DNA of 54,628 nucleotides. It comes from a virus (lineage: Duplodnaviria; Caudoviricetes). The stretch spans positions 1 to 54,628 of the IMG/VR virus record IMGVR_UViG_3300033076_001036; one strand, written 5' to 3'. The notes beneath the pieces are model-generated. The model was not told the origin of the DNA and did not search any database. It saw only the letters and a program-made list of their open reading frames with translations. Each line of letters begins with the position of its first letter. Positions within the stretch are counted from its first letter, which is position 1. Shown one piece after another: positions 9,713-43,774 of this stretch. The translations under genes were made by a program, and so were the position numbers.

Positions 9713-9740
9713 ACCTTAACGCGGCTTGGCTTTCTTTATG
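9713..9740 (-). promoter_or_regulatory. putative late promoter CATAAA-N16-TAAGGT (leaderless)
   Basis: Same spacing as four other copies; ATG at 9706 lies 6 nt after the -10. Confidence 0.6.
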
Positions 9741-10276
9741 GGTCTAGGCCGGTCAAAACCAGCAAACTCCCATGGCCCTCGCACGCTTGCTGAATGTTGC
9801 TCAGCTGCCTCAAGCGCGGTTGTGAGTCGTTCGGTAATGCTCATCGAACTGCCTTGGGTCGCGTAAAGCGCGCCCTCCGCAAACGGTGCACCGCTGCCAA
9901 TCGCGGCATACGAACCGCGCACTCGATAAGCGACCGGGCCAGGATCGATCACGTATATCTGGCCACCGACACCGAGGATCGCCTCGGACTCTTCACCGTC
10001 AGCAATGTCGTGACCCTTTCGTAGCGCCGTGACTCTGAGAGCTTCGCACACATCCTCACGTACCCACAGGTCCAAGTTCTTTCCGGCTCGCGGTGGAAGC
10101 TTGGTCAGTGCGATGAGTTCACCGAATCGGAGAGTTCCACAGAAGCCGAGCACTAAACCATCGCGGTCGAATACCTTGGGGTCTGCGCTCATGAAGATAT
10201 GATCGTCAGTTGAAAGCGCTGAATCACCACCGAGATAGACGCGATTCCCGTCTGAGATTGCGGCAATAACGGTCAT
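9716..10276 (-). CDS. HslV/proteasome-beta-like Ntn threonine peptidase
   Basis: Start M-T-VIAA puts the Thr nucleophile at position 2; GGDSA, PKVF and AIGSGA motifs; start revised to 10276. Confidence 0.8.
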   Translation of the reverse strand: MTVIAAISDGNRVYLGGDSALSTDDHIFMSADPKVFDRDGLVLGFCGTLRFGELIALTKLPPRAGKNLDLWVREDVCEALRVTALRKGHDIADGEESEAILGVGGQIYVIDPGPVAYRVRGSYAAIGSGAPFAEGALYATQGSSMSITERLTTALEAAEQHSASVRGPWEFAGFDRPRPIKKAKPR

Positions 10277-10386
10277 TTGCAAAAAACCCCGTATAAGAGC
10301 GCCAAAATTAAGAAACCCTGGACAGCGAAATATGCAATGACCCACGCGAATGACACCTGATTCACACCATCAAATGCAGCCGTCAT
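10273..10386 (-). CDS. 37-aa single-TM membrane peptide (not in ORF track)
   Basis: MTAAFDGVNQVSFAWVIAYFAVQGFLILALLYGVFCK; ATGA overlaps at both ends. Confidence 0.6.
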   Translation of the reverse strand: MTAAFDGVNQVSFAWVIAYFAVQGFLILALLYGVFCK

Positions 10387-10706
10387 TTGCAACCCTCACA
10401 GCGTGCTTTGAGCCAGCCGTTTTCGCTCTTAATCTCGCCTGGTTTTCCGCAAACTTCGCAAGTCTTGTACGACTCTCTTTCTGCTATTCCCACGGCCTCT
10501 CTGGTTATTTTTCTATCCGTCTCGCTTTGCGCGTCGAAGTAAACCCGCAATCCGCCCAGCTTCTCTTTGACCCTAATGGCTCTAACAGACGGCGCTGAGT
10601 ACGCCATGTCAGTCCCTAATCTTCGCAGAATCGGAAGCCACCCATCGCCCACCTCAAGGTGGCATTCACTAAAAAACGGCATAGACTCGATTTCTTTGCG
10701 GGTCAC
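10383..10706 (-). CDS. conserved phage protein with CxxC motifs
   Basis: GDGW...VKEKLGGLRVY...CEVCGKPG...CEGC. Confidence 0.7.
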   Translation of the reverse strand: MTRKEIESMPFFSECHLEVGDGWLPILRRLGTDMAYSAPSVRAIRVKEKLGGLRVYFDAQSETDRKITREAVGIAERESYKTCEVCGKPGEIKSENGWLKARCEGCK

Positions 10707-11203
10707 GGCGCTTCCCTCCGGTCACATTGTTCATTGATCTGACGCTCAAGCTCCAACTCAATAATCGCTAACAGTCGCCACTTGGCTTTAGTGATGTGCT
10801 TGACGCCATCAATATCAATCAAGTCGAAGTTCTTTCCAGCGTCCAAGTAGTGACGAACGAAGCAATCCTCTTGGTCCATACTCTTACCGCGTGCCCAATG
10901 CAGCGGCTCCCCTGGATTGTGTTGCTCATTTCCGATCCATGATAACTGCGCAATCTCGTAAAGAGACTCTCGTAAGTCGTGCCATCCCCAGCCTGGTGCC
11001 TTAACGCCGCAAAGCTCCAGAAATTCAGCGCAAAGCATGCGAACATCTTTATTCCGAATTGATTCTAAAGTGTCGAGAAAGTCACCGTAGCTAGGCTCGT
11101 TCTGCGCATTGACGGCCGCCAACGCCTTCGGAAAATATTGGAACACACCGGAGTAAACCGGAGTTGCCTTGCGTTCGGTAGCGTCTGTTAAGTCGAGTCC
11201 CAT
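10703..11203 (-). CDS. dATP/dGTP diphosphohydrolase-like protein (DUF5664-like) with an insertion
   Basis: RKATPVYSGVFQYFPKALAAV...GNEQHNPGEPLHWARGKS...RH...H....WR.LA. Confidence 0.65.
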   Translation of the reverse strand: MGLDLTDATERKATPVYSGVFQYFPKALAAVNAQNEPSYGDFLDTLESIRNKDVRMLCAEFLELCGVKAPGWGWHDLRESLYEIAQLSWIGNEQHNPGEPLHWARGKSMDQEDCFVRHYLDAGKNFDLIDIDGVKHITKAKWRLLAIIELELERQINEQCDRREAP

Positions 11204-11550
11204 CGGTCCCTCCCTAGGTCTTCAATCAAGTCCGAAACTGAGTGATAGATTCCGCGCTTACGCTCCGCGAACCATGCCACTTCATTCAATGATCCTTTTG
11301 ACTTCTCCCAACCTGGAACAGTCAAGATCACGTCGCACGATTTCGCCATCTGCATTGTGACCTTGTACCAGTATTTGGGAGACCCTGGACCGTGCTTGAA
11401 GTTGCGCCCCAGCGAATGAGGCACAATGGCCGCGAATCGCTCGCTGGAGCCAATAAGCTGCGCCGCCACCTTCTCAGCCGCATCAATATTAGCGTCTATC
11501 TCTTCGTCCGTATCGGCTGTGAATGGCCCGGCGATGTAGACCAAAATCAT
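11188..11550 (-). CDS. nucleoside 2-deoxyribosyltransferase-like protein (DUF4406/DUF1937 type)
   Basis: VYIAGPFT...CDVILTVPGWEKSKGS..E; start revised to 11550 (ATGA overlap). Confidence 0.75.
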   Translation of the reverse strand: MILVYIAGPFTADTDEEIDANIDAAEKVAAQLIGSSERFAAIVPHSLGRNFKHGPGSPKYWYKVTMQMAKSCDVILTVPGWEKSKGSLNEVAWFAERKRGIYHSVSDLIEDLGRDRWDST

Positions 11551-12877: not shown

Positions 12878-12904
12878 AGCTTTGCTCTCTTTTCTCCCAA
12901 ATTC

Positions 12905-12937
12905 AAAAGGGTTTCCCCTGTTCCCAAGGAAAACCCT
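12905..12937 (-). terminator. intrinsic terminator-like hairpin upstream of the endolysin
   Basis: AGGGTTTTCCTT-GGGAAC-AGGGGAAACCCT-TTT on the minus strand. Confidence 0.55.
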
Positions 12938-12960
12938 ATTCGATTCTCGCGGCTTTTATG
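12933..12960 (-). promoter_or_regulatory. putative late promoter CATAAA-N16-TAGGGT
   Basis: Intergenic copy of the motif upstream of the endolysin. Confidence 0.6.
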
Positions 12961-12965
12961 GGCCG

Positions 12966-13289
12966 TTAGTGAGTGAGGAGATAAGTCACAGTAACAGCTA
13001 CAACGGCAAGCGCGATGATTCCAAGCGCCGTCACCTGAACCCAGCTCTTTACGGCCGATACGATTCCGGTCACAGCTTGAGCGCCTTCCTCAATTTTGCT
13101 CTCTGATTTTTGCTCTGGTCTAGGTTCCATCGGCATTCCCACTTGGACGATTACAGGGTTAGTCTTTTCCTCGTCCGGCCAATCAACATCGGCGGCCTGG
13201 CGTGCGAGTTCTCGCAATCGCAAAACGCGATCACTCTGCTGCGGACGGACCACCGAAAACCGCCTTTCTGAGTTTCGAGAGTTCTTCAC
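12966..13289 (-). CDS. membrane protein with C-terminal TM helix, possible holin/lysis accessory (start uncertain)
   Basis: Hydrophobic C-terminus; directly upstream of the endolysin. Confidence 0.45.
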   Translation of the reverse strand: MKNSRNSERRFSVVRPQQSDRVLRLRELARQAADVDWPDEEKTNPVIVQVGMPMEPRPEQKSESKIEEGAQAVTGIVSAVKSWVQVTALGIIALAVVAVTVTYLLTH

Positions 13290-13461: not shown

Positions 13462-13463
13462 GA

Positions 13464-16133
13464 TTACCAGCTCCGCGATGTTTCTTCCCATGTGCCGCCG
13501 TAAAGTCTGAGCGTTATCCAGTCGCCTTGCGGTCTAGCACTTACGTTCGTGGCGCCCTTAAGCGCTAAACCAGATCCGTGTACGAGAGTCACTTGGGGAT
13601 CCATGCGACACCGAATCTCTTGCCCTTGGGCGCCTCCGGTGAAGTTCGTGACGTTCGTGTTGGTAGTGTAGTTTGAAAAGTCTACGTTGTCGTAGCCAGC
13701 CACCGAGGGAGTAGTAGTTGCATCCGCCGGAGTTGTGTAGACGTTGGAGATTCTGCGCGGGAAGTTTCGCGCAATCTCCCTCCAGAGGTTGTCCCTTCGC
13801 TCAAGAAGGATGAAGTTGTTAGAGTTTCCGGTTGCGTCAGTTCCGTACTGAAGAATGATCTTGGATACGTTGTGAACTATCGTCGCATTCGCGGAAAGCT
13901 TTATGAGCAGAAGCTGACCATCACTTCCACTGGTGAAGTCGGTAATGTTAGTAGGTGTTCCGTAGTTCTCGAAAGAAACTTGGTCCGCCGTTGAGACATC
14001 AACAGTTGCACCACTCGAAGGTGTCAACCATGTCGAGTTGATATTCCTGACTTTGCCCATGTTAAAGGGCTGGTTTCCAGGGTAGATTGACTGAAAGAAA
14101 GAGCCGGCTGCCAGTGACGCACCAACACCGTTGTTGGTGTTTGATGTGAACGTGTGGCCGGCTTCCTTTTGGATTGCGACAAGAGTCCGCGCCCCGCTCT
14201 GACGCATGCGCGAAATATCGATGTTGTCGGAAGTCGCAGTAGACGCTCCACCTGAGAAGTCTACCGCATAGCCAAACAACCCGTCAGCTTGTCCGCAGTT
14301 GACGAAGTTTGACCAGATCCGGACGTAACTAGCCTTAGCCACACTCAAGCCAGACGAGTCAACGAGTCCGCATTCAAAGAAAGTGTCAGTCTCCCCAAGT
14401 TCGACATCGACAACCTTGAGCGAGTACCCAATCAACCCGATCCCGTTTAGCCTGGAGAACGTGTTGTTTTCGGTGCGAATCCCGCGTACGCCATTGAAGT
14501 TCCAGGCGCGGCAGTTGCTATCGTAAGCCGAGCAATTGCTGACAACCAACCCAAGCGATGGAAGCGAAGTGGTTGCATCGTTGCTACCAAGCACTGAAAC
14601 CAAAGTAGGCCCGGAGATGCTTGCGCCAAACCTCAAGTTGGAAAATGTGAAACCGTGAGGCGGAACCGTGAACGCGCTCTGAGCGTAGGCCAAAACAACA
14701 TTCACTTGCCCAACGTTTCCGATTACATCATCAAACTCACAACCATCGACTGTGATGTTTCTAATGATGTTGAATGTATCGTCTGGCTCAATATCGATAG
14801 CACCCGGCATTCCAGACGTAGATGTCCGGAAGAACTTGCAACCCTGAACAACCAGGCCGTCACAATCGATAACCGAGATCCCGTTTCTTCCGGAGTTGTT
14901 GAGTCCGTCAAAAACGCAACCACGAATTACTATCTGCTGATTATGTCGCTCGATTCCTCCGGTTGTTCCGCTTCCAATGTAGACACCGTCTCCGCGGTTA
15001 CCCTCGACCCATAGGCGATCAAGTGTGAAATCAGTTGCAGCGCTTAGAACGATGTTGTGATTCGGCTCAAGAAACCCATCAGCCACCGAACGACCACGAA
15101 CCACGAAGTTCGACCACGTCGCACGCTTTTCGTTGTTCGCCGGGTTGGTTGTTCCGCCGCTTCCGTAGTTAACCCCGATGATGTACGAGTATCCGGACAA
15201 GCCAACAAATCCGGATGAGTAACCGTCCCCGGTAATGTTGTATCCGCCGCGCGCGTTGATACCGGAAACGGCATAAAGCCGGCTTAGACGTACTGGATTT
15301 CCGGTAGTGTAGGCAACGTCCAAGCATGCTTGGACGGCTGTCGAGTCGCTGGTTGTACCGTCGCCAACAGCTCCGAACATTTCCGGAGCAAGTTCGGAAT
15401 AGTCCCGCTTTAGATGAGGGCTAGACGTTCCTCCGCCGGCCGTTAGCAGCGTTCCACCGTTGTCTGTTGCGCTAGAATTGACGCAATCAAACCAGCCTTG
15501 TCCACCGTCACCCATGGCGAGGCGACCGTGCACGCGCACACGGTCCCCGGCTACGATTGCCCCGCTGGTGATAGCCGCGCGAGCCTCCGCATAGGTGGCG
15601 TACCCAGCTGCTTTAGTGTCCAGCTTTGCGGCTGTGACGGAGTTATCAGCAAGCTTCGCAGTGGTGATAGTACCGTCGCCAACATTGGCGGAAAGCAAGC
15701 TGATGACCGAACCGTCCGACTTTTTGTAGACTACTCCGTCAGCTGTTGACGAGTAATAAAGATTCCCACCAAGAGTCGGCGATGGGACTGAAGTGTTAGC
15801 GATTGGAGAGTAGTTGCTGACTGAGTGATAGACGACAGTGCCTATAGCCTGAGCCGCAACGCGCAGGACGTAGGTTGTGGTCGTGTCAACTGTGACCGTA
15901 ACCGTGAAGTAACCCTCAACATCAGGAACGAGATAGATGTATCCGTTGGTCCCGGTTAGACTCGATGCTGAGATCGAAGATCCAGCCGGCTTTGCTATAC
16001 TCCAGACGTAGTTAGATCCGGTCGGATTGGTCGTGAGCGTGATGCGTTCACCAACCAAATAACCTGTAGCCGACGCGTCCGGAGTTCCGGAAGTCATCGT
16101 GACAGTTGCGCTGTTTGCTAGTATTCCGGCCAT
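13464..16133 (-). CDS. tail spike/depolymerase with right-handed beta-helix
   Basis: PEMFGAVGDGTTSDSTAVQ pectate-lyase-3 start; parallel beta-helix repeats (GDGVYI, RNGISVI, GAIDIEP); PKD-like N-terminus. Confidence 0.85.
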   Translation of the reverse strand: MAGILANSATVTMTSGTPDASATGYLVGERITLTTNPTGSNYVWSIAKPAGSSISASSLTGTNGYIYLVPDVEGYFTVTVTVDTTTTYVLRVAAQAIGTVVYHSVSNYSPIANTSVPSPTLGGNLYYSSTADGVVYKKSDGSVISLLSANVGDGTITTAKLADNSVTAAKLDTKAAGYATYAEARAAITSGAIVAGDRVRVHGRLAMGDGGQGWFDCVNSSATDNGGTLLTAGGGTSSPHLKRDYSELAPEMFGAVGDGTTSDSTAVQACLDVAYTTGNPVRLSRLYAVSGINARGGYNITGDGYSSGFVGLSGYSYIIGVNYGSGGTTNPANNEKRATWSNFVVRGRSVADGFLEPNHNIVLSAATDFTLDRLWVEGNRGDGVYIGSGTTGGIERHNQQIVIRGCVFDGLNNSGRNGISVIDCDGLVVQGCKFFRTSTSGMPGAIDIEPDDTFNIIRNITVDGCEFDDVIGNVGQVNVVLAYAQSAFTVPPHGFTFSNLRFGASISGPTLVSVLGSNDATTSLPSLGLVVSNCSAYDSNCRAWNFNGVRGIRTENNTFSRLNGIGLIGYSLKVVDVELGETDTFFECGLVDSSGLSVAKASYVRIWSNFVNCGQADGLFGYAVDFSGGASTATSDNIDISRMRQSGARTLVAIQKEAGHTFTSNTNNGVGASLAAGSFFQSIYPGNQPFNMGKVRNINSTWLTPSSGATVDVSTADQVSFENYGTPTNITDFTSGSDGQLLLIKLSANATIVHNVSKIILQYGTDATGNSNNFILLERRDNLWREIARNFPRRISNVYTTPADATTTPSVAGYDNVDFSNYTTNTNVTNFTGGAQGQEIRCRMDPQVTLVHGSGLALKGATNVSARPQGDWITLRLYGGTWEETSRSW

Positions 16134-16856: not shown

Positions 16857-17584
16857 TAGACGATTGTCCCGCTAAGGTCCCATGTATCGGTCGCTCGCTT
16901 AGTCAATGTCGCGTAGGCGTACTGTCCCGCTAGTTTAGTGGCGCCTCCGTAAGCGTTGCGCGTTACGCCACCAGCCAATGCGGTCGTCACTTGCCCGGCG
17001 CCAATCTGCGCAATGGTAATAACAGTTCCAATTGGGAAAGCGACAGTGCTGTTAGCTGGAATCGTGAGAGTGATTGCGCTTGCGTTGCTAAGCGTAACCA
17101 ATCGGCCGGCGTCAGTAAGGGCTAGCGTGTAGCTCGTTCCAGTTTGCGCGTTGATTGCGATTCGGTCGGCCCCTGTTTTCGCGACCGTGTTGATCACATC
17201 TAACCAACCAACAGTGGCGTTTCTCGCCAGCTCCTCACCAGCTGTTAGCGGAACAATTCCGGCGTCATTGGTCGCACCAACAACACCGTAAGCCGTGGCC
17301 GTTTCATAGGTGTTAGAAACGGTGCACTTGATTAGGTACGCGCGTCCCAGGCCGTCACCAGGATCGGACGGCATGGTGAAAGTGGTGGTGGCTCCCGAAG
17401 GAACACCGGCCGGAGTTAGCGTTGGGTTGCTTACTCCACTTTTGCTAACGCCATCAACCGAAAACACTACCGAATCAACGCCGGTTGCACTTGTAAGCTG
17501 AAGCGTAACCGTTGCGCCATAGGCTACCGAGACAGCCGCTGGCACCGCCGTGCTGTTGATTGTGAACGCTGCGCTGATAGCCAT
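16856..17584 (-). CDS. tail fibre-associated protein
   Basis: C-terminal NAQTGTSYTLALTDAG..TLTIP..FPIG..W domain typical of fibre tips. Confidence 0.7.
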   Translation of the reverse strand: MAISAAFTINSTAVPAAVSVAYGATVTLQLTSATGVDSVVFSVDGVSKSGVSNPTLTPAGVPSGATTTFTMPSDPGDGLGRAYLIKCTVSNTYETATAYGVVGATNDAGIVPLTAGEELARNATVGWLDVINTVAKTGADRIAINAQTGTSYTLALTDAGRLVTLSNASAITLTIPANSTVAFPIGTVITIAQIGAGQVTTALAGGVTRNAYGGATKLAGQYAYATLTKRATDTWDLSGTIV

Positions 17585-18699
17585 TAGTTAGCTTCCTCGA
17601 CGAATCCAGCTTGCGACTGTAACAGAACAGCGGCGCTACTCTTGGTGGGAGGTATTGTGGGAGTCAGTGCCGCTAGTGCCGCTGAAAAATATTTGTGAAG
17701 CGTGATAAGCACAGGCAAACTTGCGAGCGTGTTGGTAGTGTCCTGATTGTTATGAATCGTGCTAGTCCTGTGCGCGTCGTAAGCGCGGAGCAAATCACCA
17801 AGGCCAGCGAACACTTCGGACAATTGCCCAATCGACTGAACCGCCGGCAAGTTAGTCCAATCGACCTTAGAGCTTCCGTGAAACGCACCGCTATTGACGC
17901 CCGGCTGAGTCGGAGAAACAGCGGCCGAACCAACATCGTTCGTCATGTGCTGTCGGAACTTGCGCGCAATCTCGGAGAGGATCTGAGGATAGGTCGAAGG
18001 GCTAGGGGCTTCCTTGTACCCAGCGCTAATGGTGTTCGCGCCGTCGTTCGCAGCGTGAACAGTGGCTTGCGTGCGGTGCGCTTCGTACTTGGTAATCAGA
18101 TCTGAGATGATGCTAGCAGGGCTACCAATGACCGAGGTAGCCGTGGACCCGTCAAAGTATTGGAACATACTTTTGACAGCGGGATCGTTCATAGCTGCGA
18201 GTGCGCGCGACGAAGTTGGGTTGATAATGGCCGGAGATAGTTCGCCGTGAACGGCCGTAGTCGTAGCTCGAATGGTATCGTTCCAACACCAGATCACGAA
18301 CTTGGCCTTATCCGCACCGACTCCAAGTGTGCATGTGACACGCTGGCCGATGTAAACGCTAAGTGTTGAAGCCGCTCCGACTGGAGTCTCACTAATCGCT
18401 GTGTTTGGGTCCCCTTCAAACCGTCCGCCGTAAGACGAGCCGCGCGAGTACTCCTGAACACTCAGGACATACGTGCCGCCAAGATCGAAGTTTCCGGTTT
18501 CCCACACCGGAACACTCGACTCGAAAACCATGAGCTGATTGGTAGCAGCCTTATCAAGTTGGTTTCGGTATGCGCTCCCCGTCGGCGCATCCGTGACCCA
18601 CACCCGGACGAAGTTCGCGCCGATTCCCGTTGGGGTGAAAGTCACCCGGACCTTTGACCGAGGCACCGGGTAAGTGGGGTCTAGGGTCATCGTAGGCAT
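17584..18699 (-). CDS. virion structural protein (fibre module)
   Basis: Position in the tail module; beta-rich N-terminus; repeated YxAHR...HxxxD motifs. Confidence 0.55.
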   Translation of the reverse strand: MPTMTLDPTYPVPRSKVRVTFTPTGIGANFVRVWVTDAPTGSAYRNQLDKAATNQLMVFESSVPVWETGNFDLGGTYVLSVQEYSRGSSYGGRFEGDPNTAISETPVGAASTLSVYIGQRVTCTLGVGADKAKFVIWCWNDTIRATTTAVHGELSPAIINPTSSRALAAMNDPAVKSMFQYFDGSTATSVIGSPASIISDLITKYEAHRTQATVHAANDGANTISAGYKEAPSPSTYPQILSEIARKFRQHMTNDVGSAAVSPTQPGVNSGAFHGSSKVDWTNLPAVQSIGQLSEVFAGLGDLLRAYDAHRTSTIHNNQDTTNTLASLPVLITLHKYFSAALAALTPTIPPTKSSAAVLLQSQAGFVEEAN

Positions 18700-18702
18700 A
18701 GG

Positions 18703-18752
18703 AAAAACCCGGCTTTTTCAGGCGCAATTGGGACGCGACACGGGAAAGCCGG
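18703..18752 (-). terminator. hairpin with T-tract just upstream of the 18699 start
   Basis: CCGGCTTT...AAAGCCGG, then GTTTTT. Confidence 0.45.
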
Positions 18753-18762: not shown

Positions 18763-18791
18763 TTGACACGAACCGACAATGCGGATAAGGT
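18763..18791 (+). promoter_or_regulatory. sigma70-type promoter of the antisense lipoprotein gene
   Basis: TTGACA-N17-TAAGGT, 9 nt before the ATG. Confidence 0.7.
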
Positions 18792-18800: not shown

Positions 18801-19262
18801 ATGAAAAACATTATCCTGATTCTGGCGTGTTTATGGATTGGTGGGTGCGGTTCACATGTTCCCATTGGCGAGATCAAGATCTCGTCTAAATTCGACTCCG
18901 ATCATCAGGAAAAGATACTTCAGGCAGCCGAAGAATGGTCCAACGCTTTGCCAGAGTGTTCTATCAAGGTGTCAATCAGCGACGATGAAACAGCTAACGT
19001 TATTCCGTGGGACGATGATGTCGAGTGCCAGACAACTCGCGGAATTACCAATCTGGACTCGCATGCAATAAAACTGTGCACTAACGGGATCTTGTACCAG
19101 TTCAGGATCTCCGCTCTGCATGAGCTTGGGCATGCTCTGGCGGCGCGAGATGACCATGACGTCTCCGGGATTATGTTTTGGGCTTACAGTCGCGACAACA
19201 ATAAGCTAACAGCTGAAGATCTGGACTACGTTAGGTCCCGGTGTACCAGGTCGTCACAATGA
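18801..19262 (+). CDS. matrixin-like (metzincin) zinc metalloprotease lipoprotein
   Basis: Signal peptide with lipobox IGGC; HELGHALAARDDH; Met-turn SGIM. Confidence 0.8.
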   Translation: MKNIILILACLWIGGCGSHVPIGEIKISSKFDSDHQEKILQAAEEWSNALPECSIKVSISDDETANVIPWDDDVECQTTRGITNLDSHAIKLCTNGILYQFRISALHELGHALAARDDHDVSGIMFWAYSRDNNKLTAEDLDYVRSRCTRSSQ

Positions 19263-20159: not shown

Positions 20160-21395
20160 TTAACCCCAATCAAAGGCGCCATCCCAAACAGTTCCGTCAT
20201 CCCAGAGGAAGCCGTCCCAAACAACCGACCCAACTCCGTTGAGTCTCCACTTGGGCGCGATCCATGTGGGGATAATTCGAGTCACGGAGTCGTAAAGATC
20301 AACGTTCACCAGTCGGTTAAACTCGACGTTGCTCATTGTTGCCGGTTGCCTGACATCGATTAGGATTTGACACCGGTCCGAGTACCAGTCACCGCCGCCG
20401 ATGTTGTATGCTCCAGATCCTGGGTTCATTGGCCAGAACGTATTAGGCGACCATGTGTTAAGAGTATCGGTTCCGTTCAGCGTTAGTCCAATGAACGCGT
20501 CTCCAAGAATGCTTTGGCATAGCGCCGTTAGTTCTGTGTAAGTCGCGCCCTTGGACAGTCGCGCGAACGACGAAAGTCGATTGCGGTAGCTGTCTTCTTT
20601 TTCAAGCGGGCGCTGCGGAATGTTGTAAACCTTGCCCCAGTATTGGAGCGAACTTCCGGACGACTTCGTCACGCTTCCGGCGTTCCGGTATTGATCCGGA
20701 GGACGGAATGCAAAGTACGAAAAGAGACGAGCGTCCGCGATGTTTTCAACCGTGGTAAGCGCCGTTGATTTGCTTGAGTACGCCGATCCGCGTTGCTCAA
20801 TTACGTCACGGTAAACCATGCCAGCGTACGGTACCGGGTTCTCAGTCACGTCGTCTTGCTTTAACGTGCTCCCGCCGTAGTCGTAGATAGATGGCGGTTC
20901 TTCTACCGTGCCCCAGTCAGCCCACACTACGACATTGATACGCGCATCCGTCAAAGTTCCAGCGCTGTCACGGATGTAGATGTAAGTGTTATCGCTAGTA
21001 TCAGTAGTACAGAAAAGAGCGCTAGAACTGTCAGCTGTGGCCACGGCCGCACGCGGGCACATCGTGTAGCGTCGGCCTCTTTCGTCCGTGTAGAACGTCG
21101 GAGTTAGTCCAGTTGACCATTGAAGGTAAACGTTACCGGTCCCGCCTTTAGCCAAAACAGGCGCAACTCTTCCAGTTTGGTTGGCCGGGATCTGCGAATA
21201 GTCCTCGCCGTTCTGCCCGGTGTAGCGCTCGATTGTGCCGCTTCCTGCTGTGTTGATTGTGAGAACACAGAAGGGGACGGATCGTCTAGCCGAAACCAAG
21301 TCAGCGCACGCGCGCGAGAATTGAGAAGCCGTCCAGCCCTCTGTTGAAGTTCCCCCGAGCCTAAAAGGGAACGGTGCAAAAGCACCGAACGGCAT
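20160..21395 (-). CDS. baseplate wedge-type tail protein (gp48/I-like)
   Basis: Downstream of baseplate J; LQYWGKVYNI...YRNRL pattern; start revised (TAATG overlap). Confidence 0.55.
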   Translation of the reverse strand: MPFGAFAPFPFRLGGTSTEGWTASQFSRACADLVSARRSVPFCVLTINTAGSGTIERYTGQNGEDYSQIPANQTGRVAPVLAKGGTGNVYLQWSTGLTPTFYTDERGRRYTMCPRAAVATADSSSALFCTTDTSDNTYIYIRDSAGTLTDARINVVVWADWGTVEEPPSIYDYGGSTLKQDDVTENPVPYAGMVYRDVIEQRGSAYSSKSTALTTVENIADARLFSYFAFRPPDQYRNAGSVTKSSGSSLQYWGKVYNIPQRPLEKEDSYRNRLSSFARLSKGATYTELTALCQSILGDAFIGLTLNGTDTLNTWSPNTFWPMNPGSGAYNIGGGDWYSDRCQILIDVRQPATMSNVEFNRLVNVDLYDSVTRIIPTWIAPKWRLNGVGSVVWDGFLWDDGTVWDGAFDWG

Positions 21396-21946
21396 TAGAG
21401 ACCACTCCAGACCATGAGAGTGACGGTAGGATCTGACACGGCTGCGCCTGCATCGGTCCAAGCGCGGATCGTTACTTGCGTCGCACTGTCGCGGGTTACG
21501 CTAGCGAATTGTGAGCCTGTGCCGTTGAGCTGAACTATTGGCGACTGAACCGAAAACGCGCCCAACACACCGTAGTCATCAGTGTAGGATGAAGCGAATG
21601 TGACCGTGCAAACGCCGTTTGAAACCCGCGCGGCACTCGGGAATCCAGAAGGAGCGGAAGAACCAGAGTACGACGTTGCCCGGATTCCGGTCTGCATCAT
21701 TGCGCGCGAGATAGTCGGAGCGGCCGGAGATGTGTCGTTCATCGTTAGCGTAATGGTAGCAAACGGAATCACGCGACACATTGCCGAAAGGTCCGCCGTC
21801 ATGCGCGCAAACTGCTCCGCGCTTACGTCGGTTGTCGGATCTATGACTCCGCGCAAAAGATAGTTCTGCTTATTGAGATTTCCGCCGTAGCTCGTGAAGT
21901 CATTTGACCGAAGCCAAGCGGGATTTCCGGTGGGTACTACGGGCAT
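21395..21946 (-). CDS. baseplate/tail-associated protein
   Basis: Position; resembles the N-terminal part of the downstream protein (FARMTADL vs FSRACADL). Confidence 0.55.
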   Translation of the reverse strand: MPVVPTGNPAWLRSNDFTSYGGNLNKQNYLLRGVIDPTTDVSAEQFARMTADLSAMCRVIPFATITLTMNDTSPAAPTISRAMMQTGIRATSYSGSSAPSGFPSAARVSNGVCTVTFASSYTDDYGVLGAFSVQSPIVQLNGTGSQFASVTRDSATQVTIRAWTDAGAAVSDPTVTLMVWSGL

Positions 21947-29211: not shown

Positions 29212-29239
29212 ATCCTATCACGAATTACAATTCGTTATT
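29212..29239 (-). promoter_or_regulatory. putative late promoter AATAAC-N16-TAGGAT
   Basis: GTG start at 29202 lies 9 nt after the -10. Confidence 0.55.
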
Positions 29240-30061: not shown

Positions 30062-30095
30062 CATGATGTTAGCCGATTCTAAGAGCTTCTATTGC

Positions 30096-32060: not shown

Positions 32061-32428
32061 TAGCTAGGCTCCTTCTTGGATTCAGCGGGAACTGGCACCA
32101 TTTCCCCGCCTTCAAGCCTGACTTTTTGGAGCTTGATCCCAAAAAGATCGGCGGTGTACTTGTCGGCGGGAATCAAATCGCCGCACGCGAGATAGCGTCG
32201 AATCTGCTCCGCACGCTCCCCAACATCTTCACACTGATACGGCTCTCCGGTTGCTTGGAACGCTCCGCGCACTCGGACACTTCCATCCGTTCGGCGAGCT
32301 TCCTCGGGCGTTAGCGGTTCGTCATCAGGCACGAAAGCGCGTCCCACATAACGCGGGGGCTGACCGGGAACCATTGAAGTGCCGGGCTCTCTACACATTG
32401 CACCGGGTACAGGGAAGACTTTGATCAT
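32060..32428 (-). CDS. Mu gp38/DUF2635-like protein
   Basis: KVFPVPG...RRYLACGDL, immediately upstream of the sheath. Confidence 0.5.
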   Translation of the reverse strand: MIKVFPVPGAMCREPGTSMVPGQPPRYVGRAFVPDDEPLTPEEARRTDGSVRVRGAFQATGEPYQCEDVGERAEQIRRYLACGDLIPADKYTADLFGIKLQKVRLEGGEMVPVPAESKKEPS

Positions 32429-32431: not shown

Positions 32432-32887
32432 TTAGAATCTCTTAGCTAGCTCCGCGAGCTTCTTTTGAAGGTTCGTCCGGAGGTCCTCGAACGCATGTAA
32501 GGTAGCATTCGAAAGGAATTTATATGGTTTGTTGCCGGGGTGATTCACTCGCCGGACTCGCATCCACCGGCTCATCTTAGACCAGTAAAAAACCAAGTAT
32601 GGTGCGCGCCTGGCTTCGATGACGTGAGGTCTCGCGCCCTTATCAATCGCGGCCGCGTACGGCGTGCGGTTGAACAGTTTGATCCTTGTGATTTTGCCGC
32701 CCGGAGTCCGAACAACCTTGTATTGTGTGGCCTCTGTTAGGGTCCCGGTCCTATTTCGGTATCCAGTATTTTCGCGAGCATAAAGAACACCAGCTTTACC
32801 AGCATCATCCGCTTCCGAGTCGATCACCCTTCGGACTCGATCTGAGAAAGCGTCATGCTGCTCTTTGAGTTTCTGGATGTTCAGCAC
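32432..32887 (-). CDS. HK97 gp10-like neck protein
   Basis: RTGTL, TPYAAAIDKGARPH, VNHPGNKPYKFL. Confidence 0.75.
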   Translation of the reverse strand: MLNIQKLKEQHDAFSDRVRRVIDSEADDAGKAGVLYARENTGYRNRTGTLTEATQYKVVRTPGGKITRIKLFNRTPYAAAIDKGARPHVIEARRAPYLVFYWSKMSRWMRVRRVNHPGNKPYKFLSNATLHAFEDLRTNLQKKLAELAKRF

Positions 32888-40858: not shown

Positions 40859-40864
40859 CGCGCG

Positions 40865-40892
40865 ATTCTAGCGCGGATGTTAGTTGGTTATG
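40865..40892 (-). promoter_or_regulatory. putative late promoter CATAAC-N16-TAGAAT (leaderless portal mRNA)
   Basis: GTG start lies 6 nt after the -10; no SD. Confidence 0.65.
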
Positions 40893-41044
40893 GTTTGACT
40901 CTTGTAAATCTCAAGCATCCGAGTGGCAAACAGCTCAGCTTTCACAGCCCCGTATTCATCCACAAGGAACTCGGCCATGCTCCCAGCTGGTACGAAAGTC
41001 CTAAGAGCGTGCGCAAGGATTGATAGTAGTTCTTCGTCGGTCAT
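40880..41044 (-). CDS. hypothetical protein
   Basis: Start MTDEEL with GGAGG RBS and ATGA overlap. Confidence 0.6.
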   Translation of the reverse strand: MTDEELLSILAHALRTFVPAGSMAEFLVDEYGAVKAELFATRMLEIYKSQTITN

Positions 41045-41133
41045 TTCTTCTTCCTCCCCCTCGGAACCCCCCACGCGACCGAGTACCACTCAAACCAATC
41101 GAGTGAGCGAAGTCTGAATTCTTGTGGTGTCAC
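41041..41133 (-). CDS. 30-aa peptide (not in ORF track)
   Basis: MTPQEFRLRSLDWFEWYSVAWGVPRGRKKK; GTGA and ATGA overlaps; repeats the N-terminus of 41130..41477. Confidence 0.5.
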   Translation of the reverse strand: MTPQEFRLRSLDWFEWYSVAWGVPRGRKKK

Positions 41134-41477
41134 TTCCACCCCTTTCCGTCATACCTTAGCTCCCATTCTTTCAGCGGGATCAATTCGACACCCTTCCCAT
41201 TTTTTCCCCATGAACACCACCCTCCCGCTTTCTCTGAAAGTTCCCTCAGCTTGTCGATTTCCCATTGCTCTAGTCTTTCTGGATGTAAGTCATTATGCAG
41301 GCCAGCTTCCGGATCTACCAGCTGTTCCCATAGTCGGAACTCAAGATCGATCATCCACCCGGCGAAGTAGTAACGCTCCGAAAGCTCGCTCATGAACCAC
41401 TTGAGCTTTTTTTCAGCATCGAACCAATCGAGCGAAAGAAGTCTAAACTCCAGCGGTGTCAGTTTCCTTTTTTTCAC
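41130..41477 (-). CDS. conserved hypothetical phage protein
   Basis: MSELSERYYFAGW..DLEFRLW...LSEKAGGW pattern. Confidence 0.65.
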   Translation of the reverse strand: MKKRKLTPLEFRLLSLDWFDAEKKLKWFMSELSERYYFAGWMIDLEFRLWEQLVDPEAGLHNDLHPERLEQWEIDKLRELSEKAGGWCSWGKNGKGVELIPLKEWELRYDGKGWK

Positions 41478-41878
41478 TTGTACTCCCTCAACCCTCTAGC
41501 CGTTTCCGAAGCTCCGCGCAACTTTATTTCCACTCCGCGCATCACCTGATCAACGCGAGTGCTTGAACACCCAAGAGCCTTAGCGGTCCCTCTGATATCA
41601 AGCCCACCCTCCCTTTCTGCCACGTCAAGCGAGCAACTGTTTTCCGGAGGTACGTCCCACGGGTCAAGAGATCCGTTCGGCTTGATTGTACCAGCCGCTA
41701 GGACCTCTAGGTAGTTGTTGTGCCGACAACCTACGAACGGACACGGACGCGGAACGTTCGCACAGTCCGCACGAGTCCGCGGCCTCTCATGGTCCGCTAA
41801 CGGTTCTTCACCGTCCAGTTCCAGGTGCGCAAGGTTGCGGTCAATCTGCAGTCGTACTCTTTGGCGCGAACTGGTCAC
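41474..41878 (-). CDS. Cys-rich sigma70 region-4-like HTH protein
   Basis: RPRTRADC...RPCPFVGCRHN.Y...SCSLDVAE..G...LGCSSTRVDQ; start revised to GTG 41878. Confidence 0.75.
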   Translation of the reverse strand: MTSSRQRVRLQIDRNLAHLELDGEEPLADHERPRTRADCANVPRPCPFVGCRHNNYLEVLAAGTIKPNGSLDPWDVPPENSCSLDVAEREGGLDIRGTAKALGCSSTRVDQVMRGVEIKLRGASETARGLREYK

Positions 41879-41882
41879 ACTC

Positions 41883-43151
41883 TCAACTCCCAAAAACAAC
41901 AGTCCGTTCAGAACCAACCATTCCGAACCGTCCCGTTATCGCATACCTCGCAGCGTCAAGCCAGTGGTTATTTTTATCCTCAGGTGTTTCTAGGTAAGCG
42001 TCCGGAATGTGGGGATCTTTCTTGCGCTTGTAGCTATTGAACTCCCGGATCCCGTTGACGCACTCGGGGCTCACGTAGAACCGGCACCAGGGCAGGTCGT
42101 TCGGCGGTTCGCGCTTGGCCAGCAGATCCATAACCCGAGAAATGCCGGGGAGAATCGCATTATCGGCCGGTTGACTATTGACACCGGCCCTTCGTCGTAG
42201 TTCCGCGATTCGGTCCGGCCGTGAGCGGTCGCACCAAAATGTGTGAGCAAAGCTCCACTCTTTTGCGCGTCGGTCCCATTCCTCCGGAAGCACTCCGCTT
42301 TCGTAGTGTTCCTTCAGCGCCCAAATCACGGCGTCATTTCCGTGGCCCTGAATACCGAAAAGAATCATCACGCCGGCATCGTTCCAACCATGATCGACAC
42401 CAACAATGAACTCACGAAACTGAGTTAGCGGTGGTGGCGTCCTAACGTGGAACGACTCGTCGAACGGATAAACCAGTCCCTCGCCGCTGTCGAAATCGCA
42501 ATCATACTCTCGCGAGTAGACTTGCGGATTCGTGAGCTGTTTGACAGTGCGTAGCCAAGCCTGGTCAACTTGCGGCGATTCGCTAGAGCGAAAGCGAAAT
42601 GAAACGAACTCAATTCCCTCGCCCTTCTCTCGTTTCTGCCCGAGCTGATAGTCGCGATACAAAACCCCGTGACGTCCCCGGCGCGGCGTCCCTGACTTGA
42701 CCCAAATCGCGCTTGAACCCGAACGCGAAAACGTCGGCTGAACGACACTCGTCTCAACTGTGGCTTCGATATCATCGCACTCGTCCTCTAGAACCATTCC
42801 GAAGCGCTGGCCTCGAATTGAGTGCGCATTCTCCGCTCCCCACGTCGAGAGCCGCGATCCATTCGAGTAGACCGCTGTGAGGTCGCTCATGTTCGTGGTG
42901 ACGAATCGCGACAGTGGACCCTTATAATCCTCTAACAGGTGCGGCCAAAAGACCATCTTTGCCTGTTTGAGCGAGGGGAGCAAAAGTCCGATCTGAAGGC
43001 CCGGCACCTTCATTGCCCACGAATGCAAAAGCACGCGTAGAAGAAACGACTTCCCCGTGCCTCGTCCCATAGCAAGCGTTACGACTCGCCCCGGTTGTAC
43101 CGCTTGAAATGCCTCCGACTGAAGCGCGTCAAGGTTCGCAGTGAAGCTCAC
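41883..43151 (-). CDS. terL: terminase large subunit
   Basis: Walker A GRGTGKS, Walker B VLEDE, SGTP, RNase H-like GVDHGWND and HWLDAARY. Confidence 0.92.
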   Translation of the reverse strand: MSFTANLDALQSEAFQAVQPGRVVTLAMGRGTGKSFLLRVLLHSWAMKVPGLQIGLLLPSLKQAKMVFWPHLLEDYKGPLSRFVTTNMSDLTAVYSNGSRLSTWGAENAHSIRGQRFGMVLEDECDDIEATVETSVVQPTFSRSGSSAIWVKSGTPRRGRHGVLYRDYQLGQKREKGEGIEFVSFRFRSSESPQVDQAWLRTVKQLTNPQVYSREYDCDFDSGEGLVYPFDESFHVRTPPPLTQFREFIVGVDHGWNDAGVMILFGIQGHGNDAVIWALKEHYESGVLPEEWDRRAKEWSFAHTFWCDRSRPDRIAELRRRAGVNSQPADNAILPGISRVMDLLAKREPPNDLPWCRFYVSPECVNGIREFNSYKRKKDPHIPDAYLETPEDKNNHWLDAARYAITGRFGMVGSERTVVFGS

Positions 43152-43738
43152 TCAGTCGGGGCCTCAGGATCCCCGTCTTCACCCTCTACGCCTTCACTCT
43201 CGCCACTCACAGACTCATCACTCTTCACAACCTCGGAGGGCGCACTCACATTCGCGGTCCCCTGAAGGTTCACGACTACCACAGGGCCCATCGATTCAGG
43301 GCGTGCCGTAGTGTCCGGGGTGAGTAGCTTTGCAAGATTGGACGCGTTCTTCTCGCAGTCCAAAACGATCTTCGCCCAATCGGGTCGCTTATCGATTACC
43401 ACCCCCTGATCCTTATAGACGTCCGCTTTCTTTTTCTCCGCGCGCTTTTTCGCGACTCTCATGATCTCTTGGCGGGCCGTAATGGCCTCGACAAGATACC
43501 CTTCAAACATCGCGCGCCGGTCAGCGAGGAACTCAGGATCTTTCTCAAAGTCCCGAGCAAACTTCTTCCCTAGCGACGGACTAATTCCGCAGATCGCTGA
43601 GGCCTTGTGAATGTGCCCGTTGACTAGATACTCGGCTCGAAATTTGAGCTTAGTAGCAACCGGGGTCTTATTGCCATTGTGAGGTCCGCCTGGCATTCTG
43701 TATTTGCTCCTACCGTCACCCGTTACCGTCGGCGACAC
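43148..43738 (-). CDS. terminase small subunit (putative)
   Basis: HTH-like N-terminal region; ATGA overlap with terL. Confidence 0.6.
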   Translation of the reverse strand: MSPTVTGDGRSKYRMPGGPHNGNKTPVATKLKFRAEYLVNGHIHKASAICGISPSLGKKFARDFEKDPEFLADRRAMFEGYLVEAITARQEIMRVAKKRAEKKKADVYKDQGVVIDKRPDWAKIVLDCEKNASNLAKLLTPDTTARPESMGPVVVVNLQGTANVSAPSEVVKSDESVSGESEGVEGEDGDPEAPTE

Positions 43739-43746
43739 GTAGCAGC

Positions 43747-43774
43747 ACTCTAGCTCGATTGTGGGCTAGTTATG
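43747..43774 (-). promoter_or_regulatory. putative late promoter CATAAC-N16-TAGAGT
   Basis: Just downstream of a terminator; GTG at 43738 lies 8 nt after the -10; no SD. Confidence 0.65.

What the first reader, a model, noticed from the sequence alone, without database searches (positions are those of the whole stretch)
9713..43774. Non-canonical late promoter (C)ATAAM-N16-TARRRT heading five morphogenesis/lysis modules, mostly leaderless
Seen: five minus-strand copies, all with exactly 16 nt between the boxes and all at module starts. terS: CATAAC/TAGAGT (43774-43747). Portal: CATAAC/TAGAAT (40892-40865). Tape measure: AATAAC/TAGGAT (29239-29212). Endolysin: CATAAA/TAGGGT (12960-12933). Accessory fibre module: CATAAA/TAAGGT (9740-9713). 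In four of them the start codon lies 6-9 nt after the -10, leaving no room for an SD. A looser sixth copy (TATAAC/TAGTAT, 22468-22441) lies inside baseplate J. Early promoters here use TTGACA-N17 instead. Known: the -10 fits the sigma70 TAnnnT rule, and T4 AsiA/MotA redirect sigma70 by replacing -35 recognition. Inference: late transcription keeps the host -10 but swaps in a phage-specific upstream box. The motif was defined post hoc by eye.
Basis: partly seen in the sequence, partly recalled or inferred. Interest (0 to 1): 0.85.

Follow-up and report, generated by a model that had tools for sequence, protein, structure and literature searches.

The report
Phage-specific late promoter CCATAA-N17-TAnnnT
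An uncultured tailed phage and its nearest relative put the same two-box signal, with an unusual upstream box, in front of their packaging, head, tail and lysis genes; it is very probably a private late promoter, a familiar kind of device with a new sequence and an unknown reader.

Summary
The five copies are real and far above chance. An unbiased scan of every 4- and 5-letter word upstream of TANNNT put this motif first (CCATA, 6 seen against 0.10 expected; 0 of 100 local shuffles reach it). It is better written CCATAA-N17-TAnnnT, a -35-position hexamer at the canonical 17-nt spacing. Twelve candidate copies lie on the minus strand, none on the plus strand under the same rule. Seven sit at gene boundaries. 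The nearest reachable relative (G006, portal 60% identical, spacers diverged) shows the same spike on its coding strand and has copies at matching junctions (terS, portal, tape measure, fibre block, lysis). Relatives at GC 60-68% lack it. The best reading is a lineage-specific late promoter that keeps a host-type -10 and has its own -35 box. "Mostly leaderless" holds for three of the four close-start sites named. TerS has a conserved ~45-nt leader with an SD. Two boxes overlap stop codons and two -10 hexamers read as SD-like. The endolysin -10 is the 5' arm of a strong hairpin. A candidate reader is the 177-aa zinc/sigma-region-4-like protein at 4191-4724, conserved in G006; the link is inferred. 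No transcript data exist. This scan has reported phage late promoters with leaderless starts on other DNA, with other motifs.

The parts
43747..43775 (-). TCATAA-N17-TAGAGT, directly after terminator 43807-43787 and upstream of the terS-position gene. Leader of about 45 nt to SD + ATG at 43696.
   Evidence: G006 has CCATAT-N17-GATAAT at 183-211 with a homologous leader.
40865..40893 (-). CCATAA-N17-TAGAAT, 6 nt before the portal GTG. The -10 sits in the loop of a 6-bp GC palindrome.
   Evidence: G006 has CCATTG-N17-TAATAT-7-GTG at 3012-3040 with a similar GC palindrome. The portal N-terminus is conserved.
32574..32602 (-). CCATAC-N17-TAAGAT inside gene 32432..32887, 145 nt before gene 32060..32428 and the sheath gene. 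Candidate internal promoter.
   Evidence: G006 has CCATAC-N17-TAAGAT at 11119-11147. This is the stretch of highest DNA identity in the gene (91% in 45 nt, against 27-76% over most of the rest).
32499..32527 (-). CCATAT-N17-TACCTT inside the same gene. Weak candidate.
   Evidence: No matching hit was listed in G006.
30066..30094 (-). CAATAG-N17-TAACAT between the tube gene and the chaperone-position gene, 3 nt before terminator hairpin 30062-30039. Loose candidate with 2 mismatches in the box.
   Evidence: G006 and L041 have CAATAA-N17-TAGCTT at the same junction.
29212..29240 (-). GAATAA-N17-TAGGAT, 9 nt before the tape-measure GTG. The box holds the TAA stop of gene 29235..30017.
   Evidence: The GTG start is confirmed by homology. 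G006 has CCCTAA-N17-TAAACT-11-ATG at 15086-15114.
22441..22469 (-). GTATAA-N17-TAGTAT inside the baseplate gene 21950..23464.
22037..22065 (-). AGATAA-N17-TACAAT inside the same gene, 90 nt before gene 21395..21946. Weak.
18808..18836 (-). CCATAA-N17-TAATGT, antisense to the start of the plus-strand moron and 108 nt before gene 17584..18699.
   Evidence: G006 has CCATAA-N17-TAAATT at 25459-25487 at the same junction.
12933..12961 (-). CCATAA-N17-TAGGGT, 55 nt before the endolysin ATG. The -10 overlaps hairpin 12937-12908 (-22.3 kcal/mol) followed by a T-run.
   Evidence: G006 has CCATAG-N17-TAGTTT-6-ATG at 31383-31411 after the homologue of 12966..13289.
9713..9741 (-). CCATAA-N17-TAAGGT, 6 nt before the ATG of a 62-aa ORF. 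The TAA is the stop of the HslV-like gene and AAGG is SD-like.
   Evidence: This region is not present in G006.
47690..47718 (-). CGATAA-N17-TACGAT at the end of ORF 47713..48051, 209 nt before gene 47187..47480. Uncertain.
4191..4724 (+). P0121, 177 aa. A Cys/His cluster plus an HTH like sigma region 4.2 (DRERVPQI). It is the last gene of the plus-strand block and the candidate reader of the CCATAA box.
   Evidence: G006 has a homologue at 49% identity.
41474..41917 (-). P0122, 147 aa. A second sigma-region-4-like Cys protein, inside the late block between terL and portal.
   Evidence: G001 has a homologue elsewhere in its genome.
46513..46541 (-). TTGACA-N17-TAAAAT with TG. A canonical sigma70-type promoter in front of the leftward replication genes, listed for contrast.
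18763..18791 (+). TTGACA-N17-TAAGGT, 9 nt before the ATG of the plus-strand moron. A canonical -35 with the same leaderless-type geometry.

Best explanation
CCATAA-N17-TAnnnT (mostly TARRRT) is a lineage-specific promoter class that drives the packaging, head, tail, fibre and lysis genes of this myovirus. The -10 hexamer is of the host sigma70 type. It has the same flavour as in the phage's few TTGACA-N17 promoters, so region 2 of the host primary sigma most likely reads it. The CCATAA hexamer occupies exactly the -35 position but matches TTGACA at only one of six letters. It therefore needs another reader, most likely a phage protein made from the plus-strand (early/middle) block. My best candidate is the zinc-cluster, sigma-region-4-like protein P0121 (4191-4724), acting as a -35-site activator or as a stand-in for sigma region 4. 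Its orthologue in G006 keeps the R-x-R-V-P-Q-I helix. At several copies the -10 ends 6-12 nt before the start codon, so the mRNA would have no leader or almost none. Transcripts from the endolysin and tube/chaperone copies would start inside the 5' arm of a terminator hairpin. Read-through from upstream would then stop there, while promoter-born transcripts would escape. Shown: the motif, its spacing, strand, position and conservation. Inferred: that it is a promoter, that it is late, who reads it, and the terminator-escape logic.
For: Statistics. The motif is the top word in an unbiased scan (CCATA at 18: 6 seen, 0.10 expected; ATAA at 17: 9 seen, 0.72 expected). 0 of 100 local shuffles reach it at either block size. 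CCATAA with at most 1 mismatch before TANNNT gives 9 hits at N17 on the minus strand, 0-3 at each of 14 other spacings, and 0 at N17 on the plus strand. 4 of the 5 perfect CCATAA hexamers on the minus strand have TANNNT exactly 17 nt downstream (binomial 1.5e-8). Position. 7 of 12 candidates lie at gene boundaries, where 8.6% of positions lie (p 1.9e-5). One follows an intrinsic terminator directly. Geometry. Only 5 of 82 genes have TANNNT 4-12 nt before the start. 4 of these 5 have CCATAA (0, 0 or 2 mismatches) or TTGACA (0 mismatches) at N17. Replication. In G006 (GC 55.9%, portal 60%, most virion proteins 42-86% identical) the coding strand has 6 hits at N17, against 0-3 at other spacings and 0 on the other strand (Poisson 1e-4). 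CATA at 18 is also its top 4-mer. Copies lie at the junctions matching the window's terS, portal, in-gene 32602, tube/chaperone, tape-measure, 18836 and lysis sites, while the spacers barely align. G006 also has TTGACG-N17-TAACTT-7-ATG and TTGACG-N17-TAGTGT-6-ATG, so a -10 next to the start codon is used with canonical promoters in this group too. Reader. The P0121 family has 20 remote homologues. 7 of 21 members hit Pfam Sigma70_r4, best E 1.9e-7. All 35 PDB profile hits are sigma factors, and in the three alignments shown the match falls on the region 4.2 helices (best E 0.016). G006 has a homologue. No sigma region 2 is found in six frames of the window.
Against: No transcript 5' end, expression timing or binding was observed, and no RNA run holds this phage. 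The motif is absent from 5 of 5 relatives at about 50% portal identity and from 4 of 5 other loci at GC 60-63%; L043 has one hit. Only one independent lineage therefore replicates it, because L041 is the same lineage as G006. Several single sites have other readings. The tape-measure box contains a stop codon. TAAGGT and TAGGAT double as SD-like AAGG and AGGA at SD distance. TAGGGT is a hairpin arm. In more distant relatives the chaperone-to-tape-measure and terL-to-portal junctions are tight and need no promoter. Five candidates lie inside genes. The P0121 link rests on co-occurrence in two lineages. P0121 itself misses Pfam thresholds, and the fold searches were not significant. G001 carries a family member but not the motif. 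The window is only 73% complete, so a true sigma factor could lie in the missing part.
Confidence: 0.6

Rival explanations
1. It is a promoter class, but a complete alternative sigma factor reads both boxes. That factor would be either phage-encoded in the missing ~27% of the genome or a host alternative sigma hijacked for late genes. Host sigma70 plus a -35-site factor would not be involved.
For: The geometry of hexamer, 17 nt and hexamer is what a single sigma70-family protein reads. The record is 73% complete. Phage sigma factors with their own two-box promoters are known, for example phiEco32 and 7-11 (PMC8948821, abstract in the listing).
Against: No Sigma70_r2 match in six frames of the window at E<=1. 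None appeared among the proteins scanned. The -10 hexamers are indistinguishable in style from those of the phage's TTGACA promoters, which points to the same region 2. The host is unknown, so its regulons cannot be checked.
Confidence: 0.2
2. The two boxes are a real conserved element but not a promoter. They could be a binding site for a regulatory or packaging protein, or an RNA-level signal tied to the adjacent hairpins, stop codons and ribosome sites, such as a processing, re-initiation or terminator-control site.
For: Two copies abut or overlap strong hairpins. The portal copy lies in a palindrome that is conserved in G006. Several -10 boxes overlap stop codons or SD-like purines at SD distance from the start.
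Against: A fixed 17-nt gap between a hexamer and TAnnnT, with free spacer sequence, is the signature of sigma70-family promoters. Canonical TTGACA/TTGACG-N17-TAnnnT copies in the same geometry occur in both phages. Copies with 50-145-nt leaders (43775, 18836, 12961, 32602) are too far from any start codon to be translation signals. No Rfam family matches.
Confidence: 0.1
3. It is a chance pattern picked out by eye from AT-rich gene boundaries.
For: The motif was defined post hoc with four degenerate positions. Boundaries are enriched in TAA/TAG and purines. Genome-wide exact 4-mer dyads give nothing significant.
Against: It ranks first in an unbiased word scan and beats 100 of 100 local shuffles that keep local composition. 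The spike is at a single spacing. It replicates in G006 as a pre-specified test.
Confidence: 0.03

Closest known systems
Bacteriophage T4 middle promoters (MotA box plus sigma70 -10; sigma appropriation by AsiA and MotA)
   Same: A host-type -10 element is kept and the -35 element is replaced by a phage-specific box read with the help of phage protein(s). [quoted passage not shown]
   Different: Here the box is a hexamer at -35..-30 with a canonical 17-nt spacer, not a 9-bp box centred at -30. The sequence is different. No MotA_activ or AsiA match was found in six frames of the window. The genes served are late (virion and lysis), not middle.
RinA / ArpU-type late activators of Gram-positive phages
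   Same: A small phage protein activates the late operon from a site upstream of terS, behind a terminator. [quoted passage not shown] P0121 is also a small phage protein with a region-4-like HTH.
   Different: RinA controls one promoter in front of terS. Here about 7-12 copies are spread through 38 kb. None of the 21 members of the P0121 family matched a RinA or ArpU model at E<=0.05 in NCBIfam; only sigma-factor models and a few unrelated regulators matched. P0121 has an added Cys/His cluster. Binding was not tested.
Mu late promoters activated by C (and the middle promoter activated by Mor)
   Same: Several late promoters (lys, I, P, mom) with non-consensus -35 elements need one phage activator (PMC4461284, abstract and one passage read).
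   Different: No Mor-family match in six frames of the window. That the C site is a dyad upstream of and overlapping -35 is my recollection only. No dyad partner of the box is evident in the printed site contexts.
Promoter -10 adjacent to the ORF, giving leaderless mRNA (Deinococcus-Thermus and others)
   Same: A -10 hexamer 6-9 nt before the start codon and no SD, as at the portal, tape-measure and 62-aa ORF copies and at the TTGACA/TTGACG morons. Papers PMC12340547 and PMC3160421 were seen only as abstracts in the listing.
   Different: The host here is unknown. Most genes of this phage have AAGGA(G)-type SDs or coupled starts, so leaderless starts are the exception (5 of 82).

Membership tests
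Sigma70-family two-box promoter | -10 hexamer of the form TAnnnT | tested here: met
   Used as the anchor. The -10s are TAGAGT, TAGAAT, TAGGAT, TAGGGT, TAAGGT, TAATGT and TACGAT at the boundary copies. This is circular for presence but not for the spacing spike.
Sigma70-family two-box promoter | Second hexamer 17 +/- 1 nt upstream | tested here: met
   CCATAA with at most 1 mismatch gives 9 hits at N17 against 0-3 at 14 other spacings. In G006 the figures are 6 against 0-3.
Sigma70-family two-box promoter | -35 hexamer resembling TTGACA (primary sigma) | tested here: not met
   CCATAA matches TTGACA at 1 of 6 positions. The mismatch counts to TTGACA are 5 at the CCATAA copies.
Sigma70-family two-box promoter | Transcription start 6-8 nt after the -10 | not testable with these tools
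   No RNA holder was listed, and only contigs of the source sample cover the phage.
T4-type sigma appropriation (MotA/AsiA middle promoters) | MotA box centred at about -30 in place of the -35 | tested here: not met
   The box lies at -35..-30 with a 17-nt spacer and has a different sequence. Definition taken from PMC6755090.
T4-type sigma appropriation (MotA/AsiA middle promoters) | MotA and AsiA homologues encoded by the phage | tested here: inconclusive
   PF09114 and PF09010 give 0 matches at E<=1 in six frames, but the record is 73% complete.
Promoters of a phage-encoded sigma factor | Phage gene with sigma region 2 | tested here: inconclusive
   PF04542 gives 0 matches at E<=1 in six frames of the window, but the record is 73% complete.
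Mu Mor/C-dependent promoters | Mor-family activator gene | tested here: inconclusive
   PF08765 gives 0 matches at E<=1 in six frames, but the record is incomplete.
Sigma-region-4-like HTH proteins (Pfam Sigma70_r4), for P0121 | Match to the Sigma70_r4 profile | tested here: inconclusive
   P0121 itself has no hit. 7 of 21 family members hit PF04545, best E 1.9e-7. The family profile hits only sigma factors in the PDB (35 of 35, best E 0.016). Foldseek has no match at E<=0.001 and VIA gives Z<=3.8.
RinA/ArpU late activators | Match to the family models | tested here: not met
   None of the 21 members of alignment A1 matched such a model in NCBIfam at E<=0.05.
Leaderless mRNA | -10 ending about 6-9 nt before the start codon and no SD | tested here: met
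   Portal 6 nt, 62-aa ORF 6 nt, tape measure 9 nt. The portal and tape-measure starts are fixed by homology. Not met for terS (50 nt to the ATG, with an SD) or for the endolysin (55 nt).

The most novel reading that the evidence does not exclude
A free-standing zinc-binding copy of sigma region 4 (P0121) docks on host RNA polymerase in place of, or on top of, region 4 of the primary sigma. It thereby re-aims -35 recognition from TTGACA to CCATAA while sigma region 2 still reads the -10. This would be a one-protein form of sigma appropriation that switches a whole late regulon. Promoters are fused to start codons or embedded in terminators, so only factor-dependent transcripts would pass.
Probability: 0.15. 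Interest if true: 0.85.

Novelty: new variant of a known kind. Interest (0 to 1): 0.5.

Why it matters
Phage-specific middle and late promoters are a classic way of re-aiming host RNA polymerase, but the readers are known for only a handful of model phages. This clade has no GenBank phage relative. It offers a clean, testable case: a hexamer at the exact -35 position with canonical spacing, a host-type -10, and a small sigma-region-4-like protein as candidate reader. If the link holds, it would show a simpler route to -35 re-targeting than T4's two-protein system. It would also give a function to a family of viral 'Sigma70_r4-like' orphans. In practice, the motif marks transcription units and true start codons in these metagenomic genomes. 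This scan has already met many phage late promoters with leaderless starts on other DNA, so the kind is not rare.

Tried and rejected
Exact 4-mer/4-mer dyads over the whole genome: nothing survives 655,360 tests. The motif shows only when the -10 is allowed to be TAnnnT.

Conservation in relatives.
- The 16 portal-linked IMG/VR loci have none.
- 0 of 5 records (G001-G005) have ATAAM-N16-TANNNT.
- Word scans of G001-G003 show no comparable spike.
- L042, L044, L045 and L046 have 0 hits and L043 has 1.
- I first read this as non-conservation. It changed when the tape-measure query found G006.

Closest relative.

Other searches for relatives.
- The GenBank phage collection gave no match by DNA or by portal protein.
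- terS-position protein in IMG/VR: no relative.
- Tube protein: only G006 and G003-type records.
- P0123: only G006.

Sequencing runs. No RNA holder is listed. One holder has all the words and is probably the source sample. Two runs of the same study hold next to nothing. Laying them gave only short unrelated pieces from X2 and X3 and no relative over any site.

P0121.
- No PHROG, Pfam or PDB sequence hit alone.
- The word-based homologue search found only itself.
- The single-sequence fold was poor, pLDDT 35.
- The alignment-based model reached pLDDT 73. Foldseek found no match at E<=0.001. VIA gave Z<=3.8 with many sigma domain-4 rows among unrelated ones. I treat the fold searches as inconclusive.
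- P0121 against P0122 by BLASTP is not significant. Their kinship rests on the shared Cys/HTH pattern seen by eye and on the atlas leads.

Readings considered and dropped.
- A sigma32-type reading of CCCATAAA as a -10, and a sigma28 reading of CGATAA. These consensus sequences are recalled from memory. No consistent partner box is visible in the printed contexts, and the TAnnnT partner is at a fixed distance.
- Autoregulation through the CCATAA at 4178. It is not conserved in G006, where the gene has no upstream gap.

Rfam: 0 families. tRNAs: 0. Literature: a search for CCATAA with 'late promoter' and 'phage' listed no paper holding the word among the 8 shown. Supplements were not consulted.

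Full report
WHAT THE WINDOW IS. The window is a whole IMG/VR virus record of 54,628 bases, rated 73% complete, with GC 54%. PHROG and Pfam scans name a large terminase, portal, Mu-F-like head protein, sheath, tape measure, amidase endolysin, HslV-like peptidase, clamp-like processivity factor, Cas4-like exonuclease, SNF2 helicase and DNA methylase. It is therefore a contractile-tailed phage. Genes from about 47.1 kb down to 4.7 kb run on the minus strand. The early-looking genes run on the plus strand at both ends. No GenBank phage matches it by DNA or by portal protein.

THE OBSERVATION. The pattern ATAAM-N16-TARRRT occurs 5 times against 0.12 expected, and 0 of 100 shuffles reach 5. The reversed-pattern control gives 1.

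Because the motif was drawn by eye, I tested it in ways that do not depend on its exact wording.
- First, spacing. With the -10 relaxed to TANNNT, ATAAM gives 9 minus-strand hits at 16 nt and 0-2 at each other spacing from 10 to 23. The plus strand gives 1.
- Second, an unbiased scan. For every 4-mer and 5-mer, every spacing from 12 to 21 and both strands, I counted the words upstream of TANNNT. The top results were CCATA at 18 (6 seen, 0.10 expected, p 1e-9) and ATAA at 17 (9 seen, 0.72 expected).
- Third, shuffles. In shuffles that keep local composition (blocks of 30 or 100 nt), 0 of 100 reach the observed value for either word length. The closest came for 4-mers, at 1.9e-7 against 7.6e-8.
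- An exact 4-mer/4-mer dyad scan without the TANNNT anchor found nothing significant.

The motif is real, and it is better described as the hexamer CCATAA, a 17-nt spacer, then TAnnnT. That is the geometry of a sigma70-family promoter with a foreign -35. CCATAA with at most one mismatch gives 9 hits at N17 on the minus strand, against 0-3 at 14 other spacings and 0 at N17 on the plus strand. Of the 5 perfect CCATAA hexamers on the minus strand, 4 have TANNNT exactly 17 nt downstream (binomial 1.5e-8). The fifth, at 4178, has TAAAAA at 16.

THE COPIES. Taking CCATAA with at most one mismatch, or ATAA in place, there are 12 minus-strand candidates: 47718, 43775, 40893, 32602, 32527, 29240, 23583, 22469, 22065, 18836, 12961 and 9741. 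Seven lie at gene boundaries, where only 8.6% of positions in the block lie (p 1.9e-5). It has a perfect CCATAA, lies antisense to the start of the plus-strand moron, and is 108 nt before gene 17584..18699. A looser copy, CAATAG-N17-TAACAT at 30094-30066, lies between the tube gene and the next gene.

CAVEATS ON SINGLE SITES.
- The terS copy follows an intrinsic terminator (43807-43787, -13 kcal/mol). The GTG 8 nt after its -10 is probably not the start. An AGGAG and ATG at 43696 follow, and the stretch between is homologous to the leader in G006.
- The box of the tape-measure copy contains the TAA stop of the upstream gene. Its TAGGAT could serve as an AGGA ribosome site.
- The TAAGGT of the 9713 copy is a stop codon plus AAGG, 7 nt before the ATG. 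This phage's usual ribosome site is AAGGA(G).
- The TAGGGT of the endolysin copy is the 5' arm of a 13-bp hairpin (-22.3 kcal/mol, z -5.4) followed by a T-run.
- The tube/chaperone copy ends 3 nt before another strong terminator (-23.4 kcal/mol). Every relative has a terminator at that junction.

RELATIVES. Sixteen IMG/VR loci found with the portal (39-54% identity, GC 62-68%) have no copy, and there the portal follows terL without a gap. Five of their whole records have none even with TANNNT. In G001 and G003 the tape-measure gene starts 3-4 nt after the preceding stop, which also fixes the window's GTG start by homology.

A tape-measure query then found a 40.4-kb IMG/VR record, G006. It has GC 55.9% and a portal 60% identical. 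Most of its virion proteins are 42-86% identical. It also has a homologue of P0121 at 49% identity. As a pre-specified test, G006 replicates the motif:
- CCATA at 18 occurs 3 times against 0.08 expected, and CATA at 18 is its top 4-mer.
- CCATAA with at most one mismatch gives 6 hits at N17 on the coding strand, against 0-3 at other spacings and 0 on the other strand (Poisson 1e-4).

The copies in G006 sit at matching junctions:
- in front of the terS leader (CCATAT-N17-GATAAT, 183-211);
- before the portal GTG (CCATTG-N17-TAATAT-7-GTG, 3012-3040, again inside a GC palindrome);
- inside the homologue of 32432..32887 (CCATAC-N17-TAAGAT);
- after the tube gene (CAATAA-N17-TAGCTT);
- before the tape measure (CCCTAA-N17-TAAACT-11-ATG);
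- before the homologue of 17584..18699 (CCATAA-N17-TAAATT);
- before the homologue of 13464..16133 (GCATAA-N17-TAACAT-12-ATG; I saw no counterpart in the window);
- after the homologue of 12966..13289 (CCATAG-N17-TAGTTT-6-ATG).

The terS and portal copies have two mismatches or a G-start -10 and were found by eye at the junction, not by the rule. Outside the boxes the intergenic DNA hardly aligns.

The in-gene copy lies in the stretch of highest DNA identity of its gene (91% in 45 nt). I counted 4 synonymous changes in about 16 degenerate codons there, against 9 of 13 in another conserved stretch. This is my count from the alignment and a weak hint only.

A metagenome contig, L041, is the same lineage as G006 and shows the same three copies in the part held. 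Loci at GC 60-63% (L042-L046) have 0, 1, 0, 0 and 0 hits. The motif therefore belongs to the GC 54-56% lineage only, with one independent replication.

WHY A PROMOTER. The fixed 17-nt gap with free spacer sequence points to a promoter. So do the restriction to the coding strand, the placement at boundaries and after a terminator, and the TAnnnT box.

The same genome has a few canonical promoters: TTGACA-N17-TAAAAT with TG at 46541-46513, TAGACA-N17-TAGGAT at 46408-46380, CTGACA-N17-TAAGAT at 47039-47067, and TTGACA-N17-TAAGGT before the moron. Their -10 boxes have the same TARRRT style as the CCATAA class. This suggests that the same sigma region 2 reads both.

Only 5 of 82 genes have TANNNT 4-12 nt before the start. 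Four of those five carry CCATAA (0, 0 or 2 mismatches) or TTGACA (0 mismatches) at N17. G006 has two more canonical cases, TTGACG-N17-TAACTT-7-ATG and TTGACG-N17-TAGTGT-6-ATG. So -10 boxes fused to start codons are a real habit of this group. It does not hold for terS or the endolysin.

WHO READS IT. The window has no sigma region 2, Mor, MotA or AsiA match in six frames, with the caveat that the genome is incomplete.

Following a note on this genome, I looked at two Cys-rich proteins. P0121 (4191-4724) is the last gene of the plus-strand block and ends in LLLGVDRERVPQIGAEAAL. Alone it matches nothing. An exhaustive search found 20 remote homologues. In the alignment, C78, C83, C117 and D120 are invariant, and the tail reads like sigma region 4.2. 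7 of 21 members hit Pfam Sigma70_r4, best E 1.9e-7. The family profile hits only sigma factors in the PDB (35 of 35, best E 0.016). In the three alignments shown, the match falls on the region 4.2 helices. NCBIfam gives weak hits to sigma-factor models plus three single hits to unrelated models, and language-model neighbours are viral Sigma70_r4 clusters. The fold searches were not significant.

The G006 orthologue keeps R-x-R-V-P-Q-I, while other family members differ there. That fits a shared target, but this is inference. G001 has a family member of the P0122 type without the motif.

A late activator with a region-4-like half has a precedent in RinA (PMC3152322). Replacement of the -35 by a phage box has its precedent in T4 middle promoters (PMC6755090).

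VERDICT. The most likely reading (0.6) is a lineage-specific late promoter class that host polymerase reads with a phage -35-site factor. The main rival is a dedicated sigma factor (0.2). It is a new variant of a well-known kind of phage device. This scan has already met many phage late promoters with leaderless starts on other DNA, though none of the notes shown reports this motif. Everything about transcription itself remains to be shown.

Noticed in passing
L035 (G006) 735-771 and 1038-1075: Two small genes sit between the terS-like gene and terL of the relative. Each lies behind a canonical TTGACG-N17-TAnnnT promoter whose -10 ends 6-7 nt before the ATG. The second follows a terminator. 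They look like sigma70-driven leaderless morons inside the packaging module.
   Followed up: partly
window 4150-4196: The fifth perfect CCATAA on the minus strand (4178-4173) abuts TAGTGT on the plus strand, a -10-like hexamer 6 nt before the ATG of P0121. The arrangement is not conserved in G006, where the gene has no upstream gap.
   Followed up: partly
window 40858-40876; G006 3030-3047: The portal -10 sits in the loop of a GC palindrome (CCGCGC-TAGAATC-GCGCGG in the window, GGCGC-TAATAT-GCGC in G006). Its 3' arm runs into the GTG start. The window hairpin folds at -11.9 kcal/mol, z -2.2.
   Followed up: partly
window 40880-41917: Three small ORFs, among them the sigma-region-4-like P0122, lie between terL and portal. 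In the 16 more distant relatives the portal follows terL directly.
   Followed up: partly
L049-L054 (G007, the genome that holds L046): The MAG that holds a related phage contig is titled uncultured Pseudobdellovibrionaceae. It has 6 matches to the P0121/P0122 family profile on six different contigs. This may be a host hint or a sign of many phage contigs in the bin.
   Followed up: no
window 30039-30062 and the same junction in L039, L041-L046: A strong terminator hairpin after the tube gene is kept in every relative examined, whatever its GC or promoter motif.
   Followed up: partly
window 18700-18725; G006 about 25570-25595: AAAAAGCCGGGTTTTT, just before the ATG of gene 17584..18699, is conserved almost letter for letter in G006 although the rest of the leader has diverged.
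   Followed up: no
window, minus strand, genome-wide: ATTG-N18-ACAT (8 seen, 0.64 expected) and ATTG-N19-CATC (9 seen, 0.92 expected) were the top exact dyads. Neither is significant after correction, and they were not examined.
   Followed up: no
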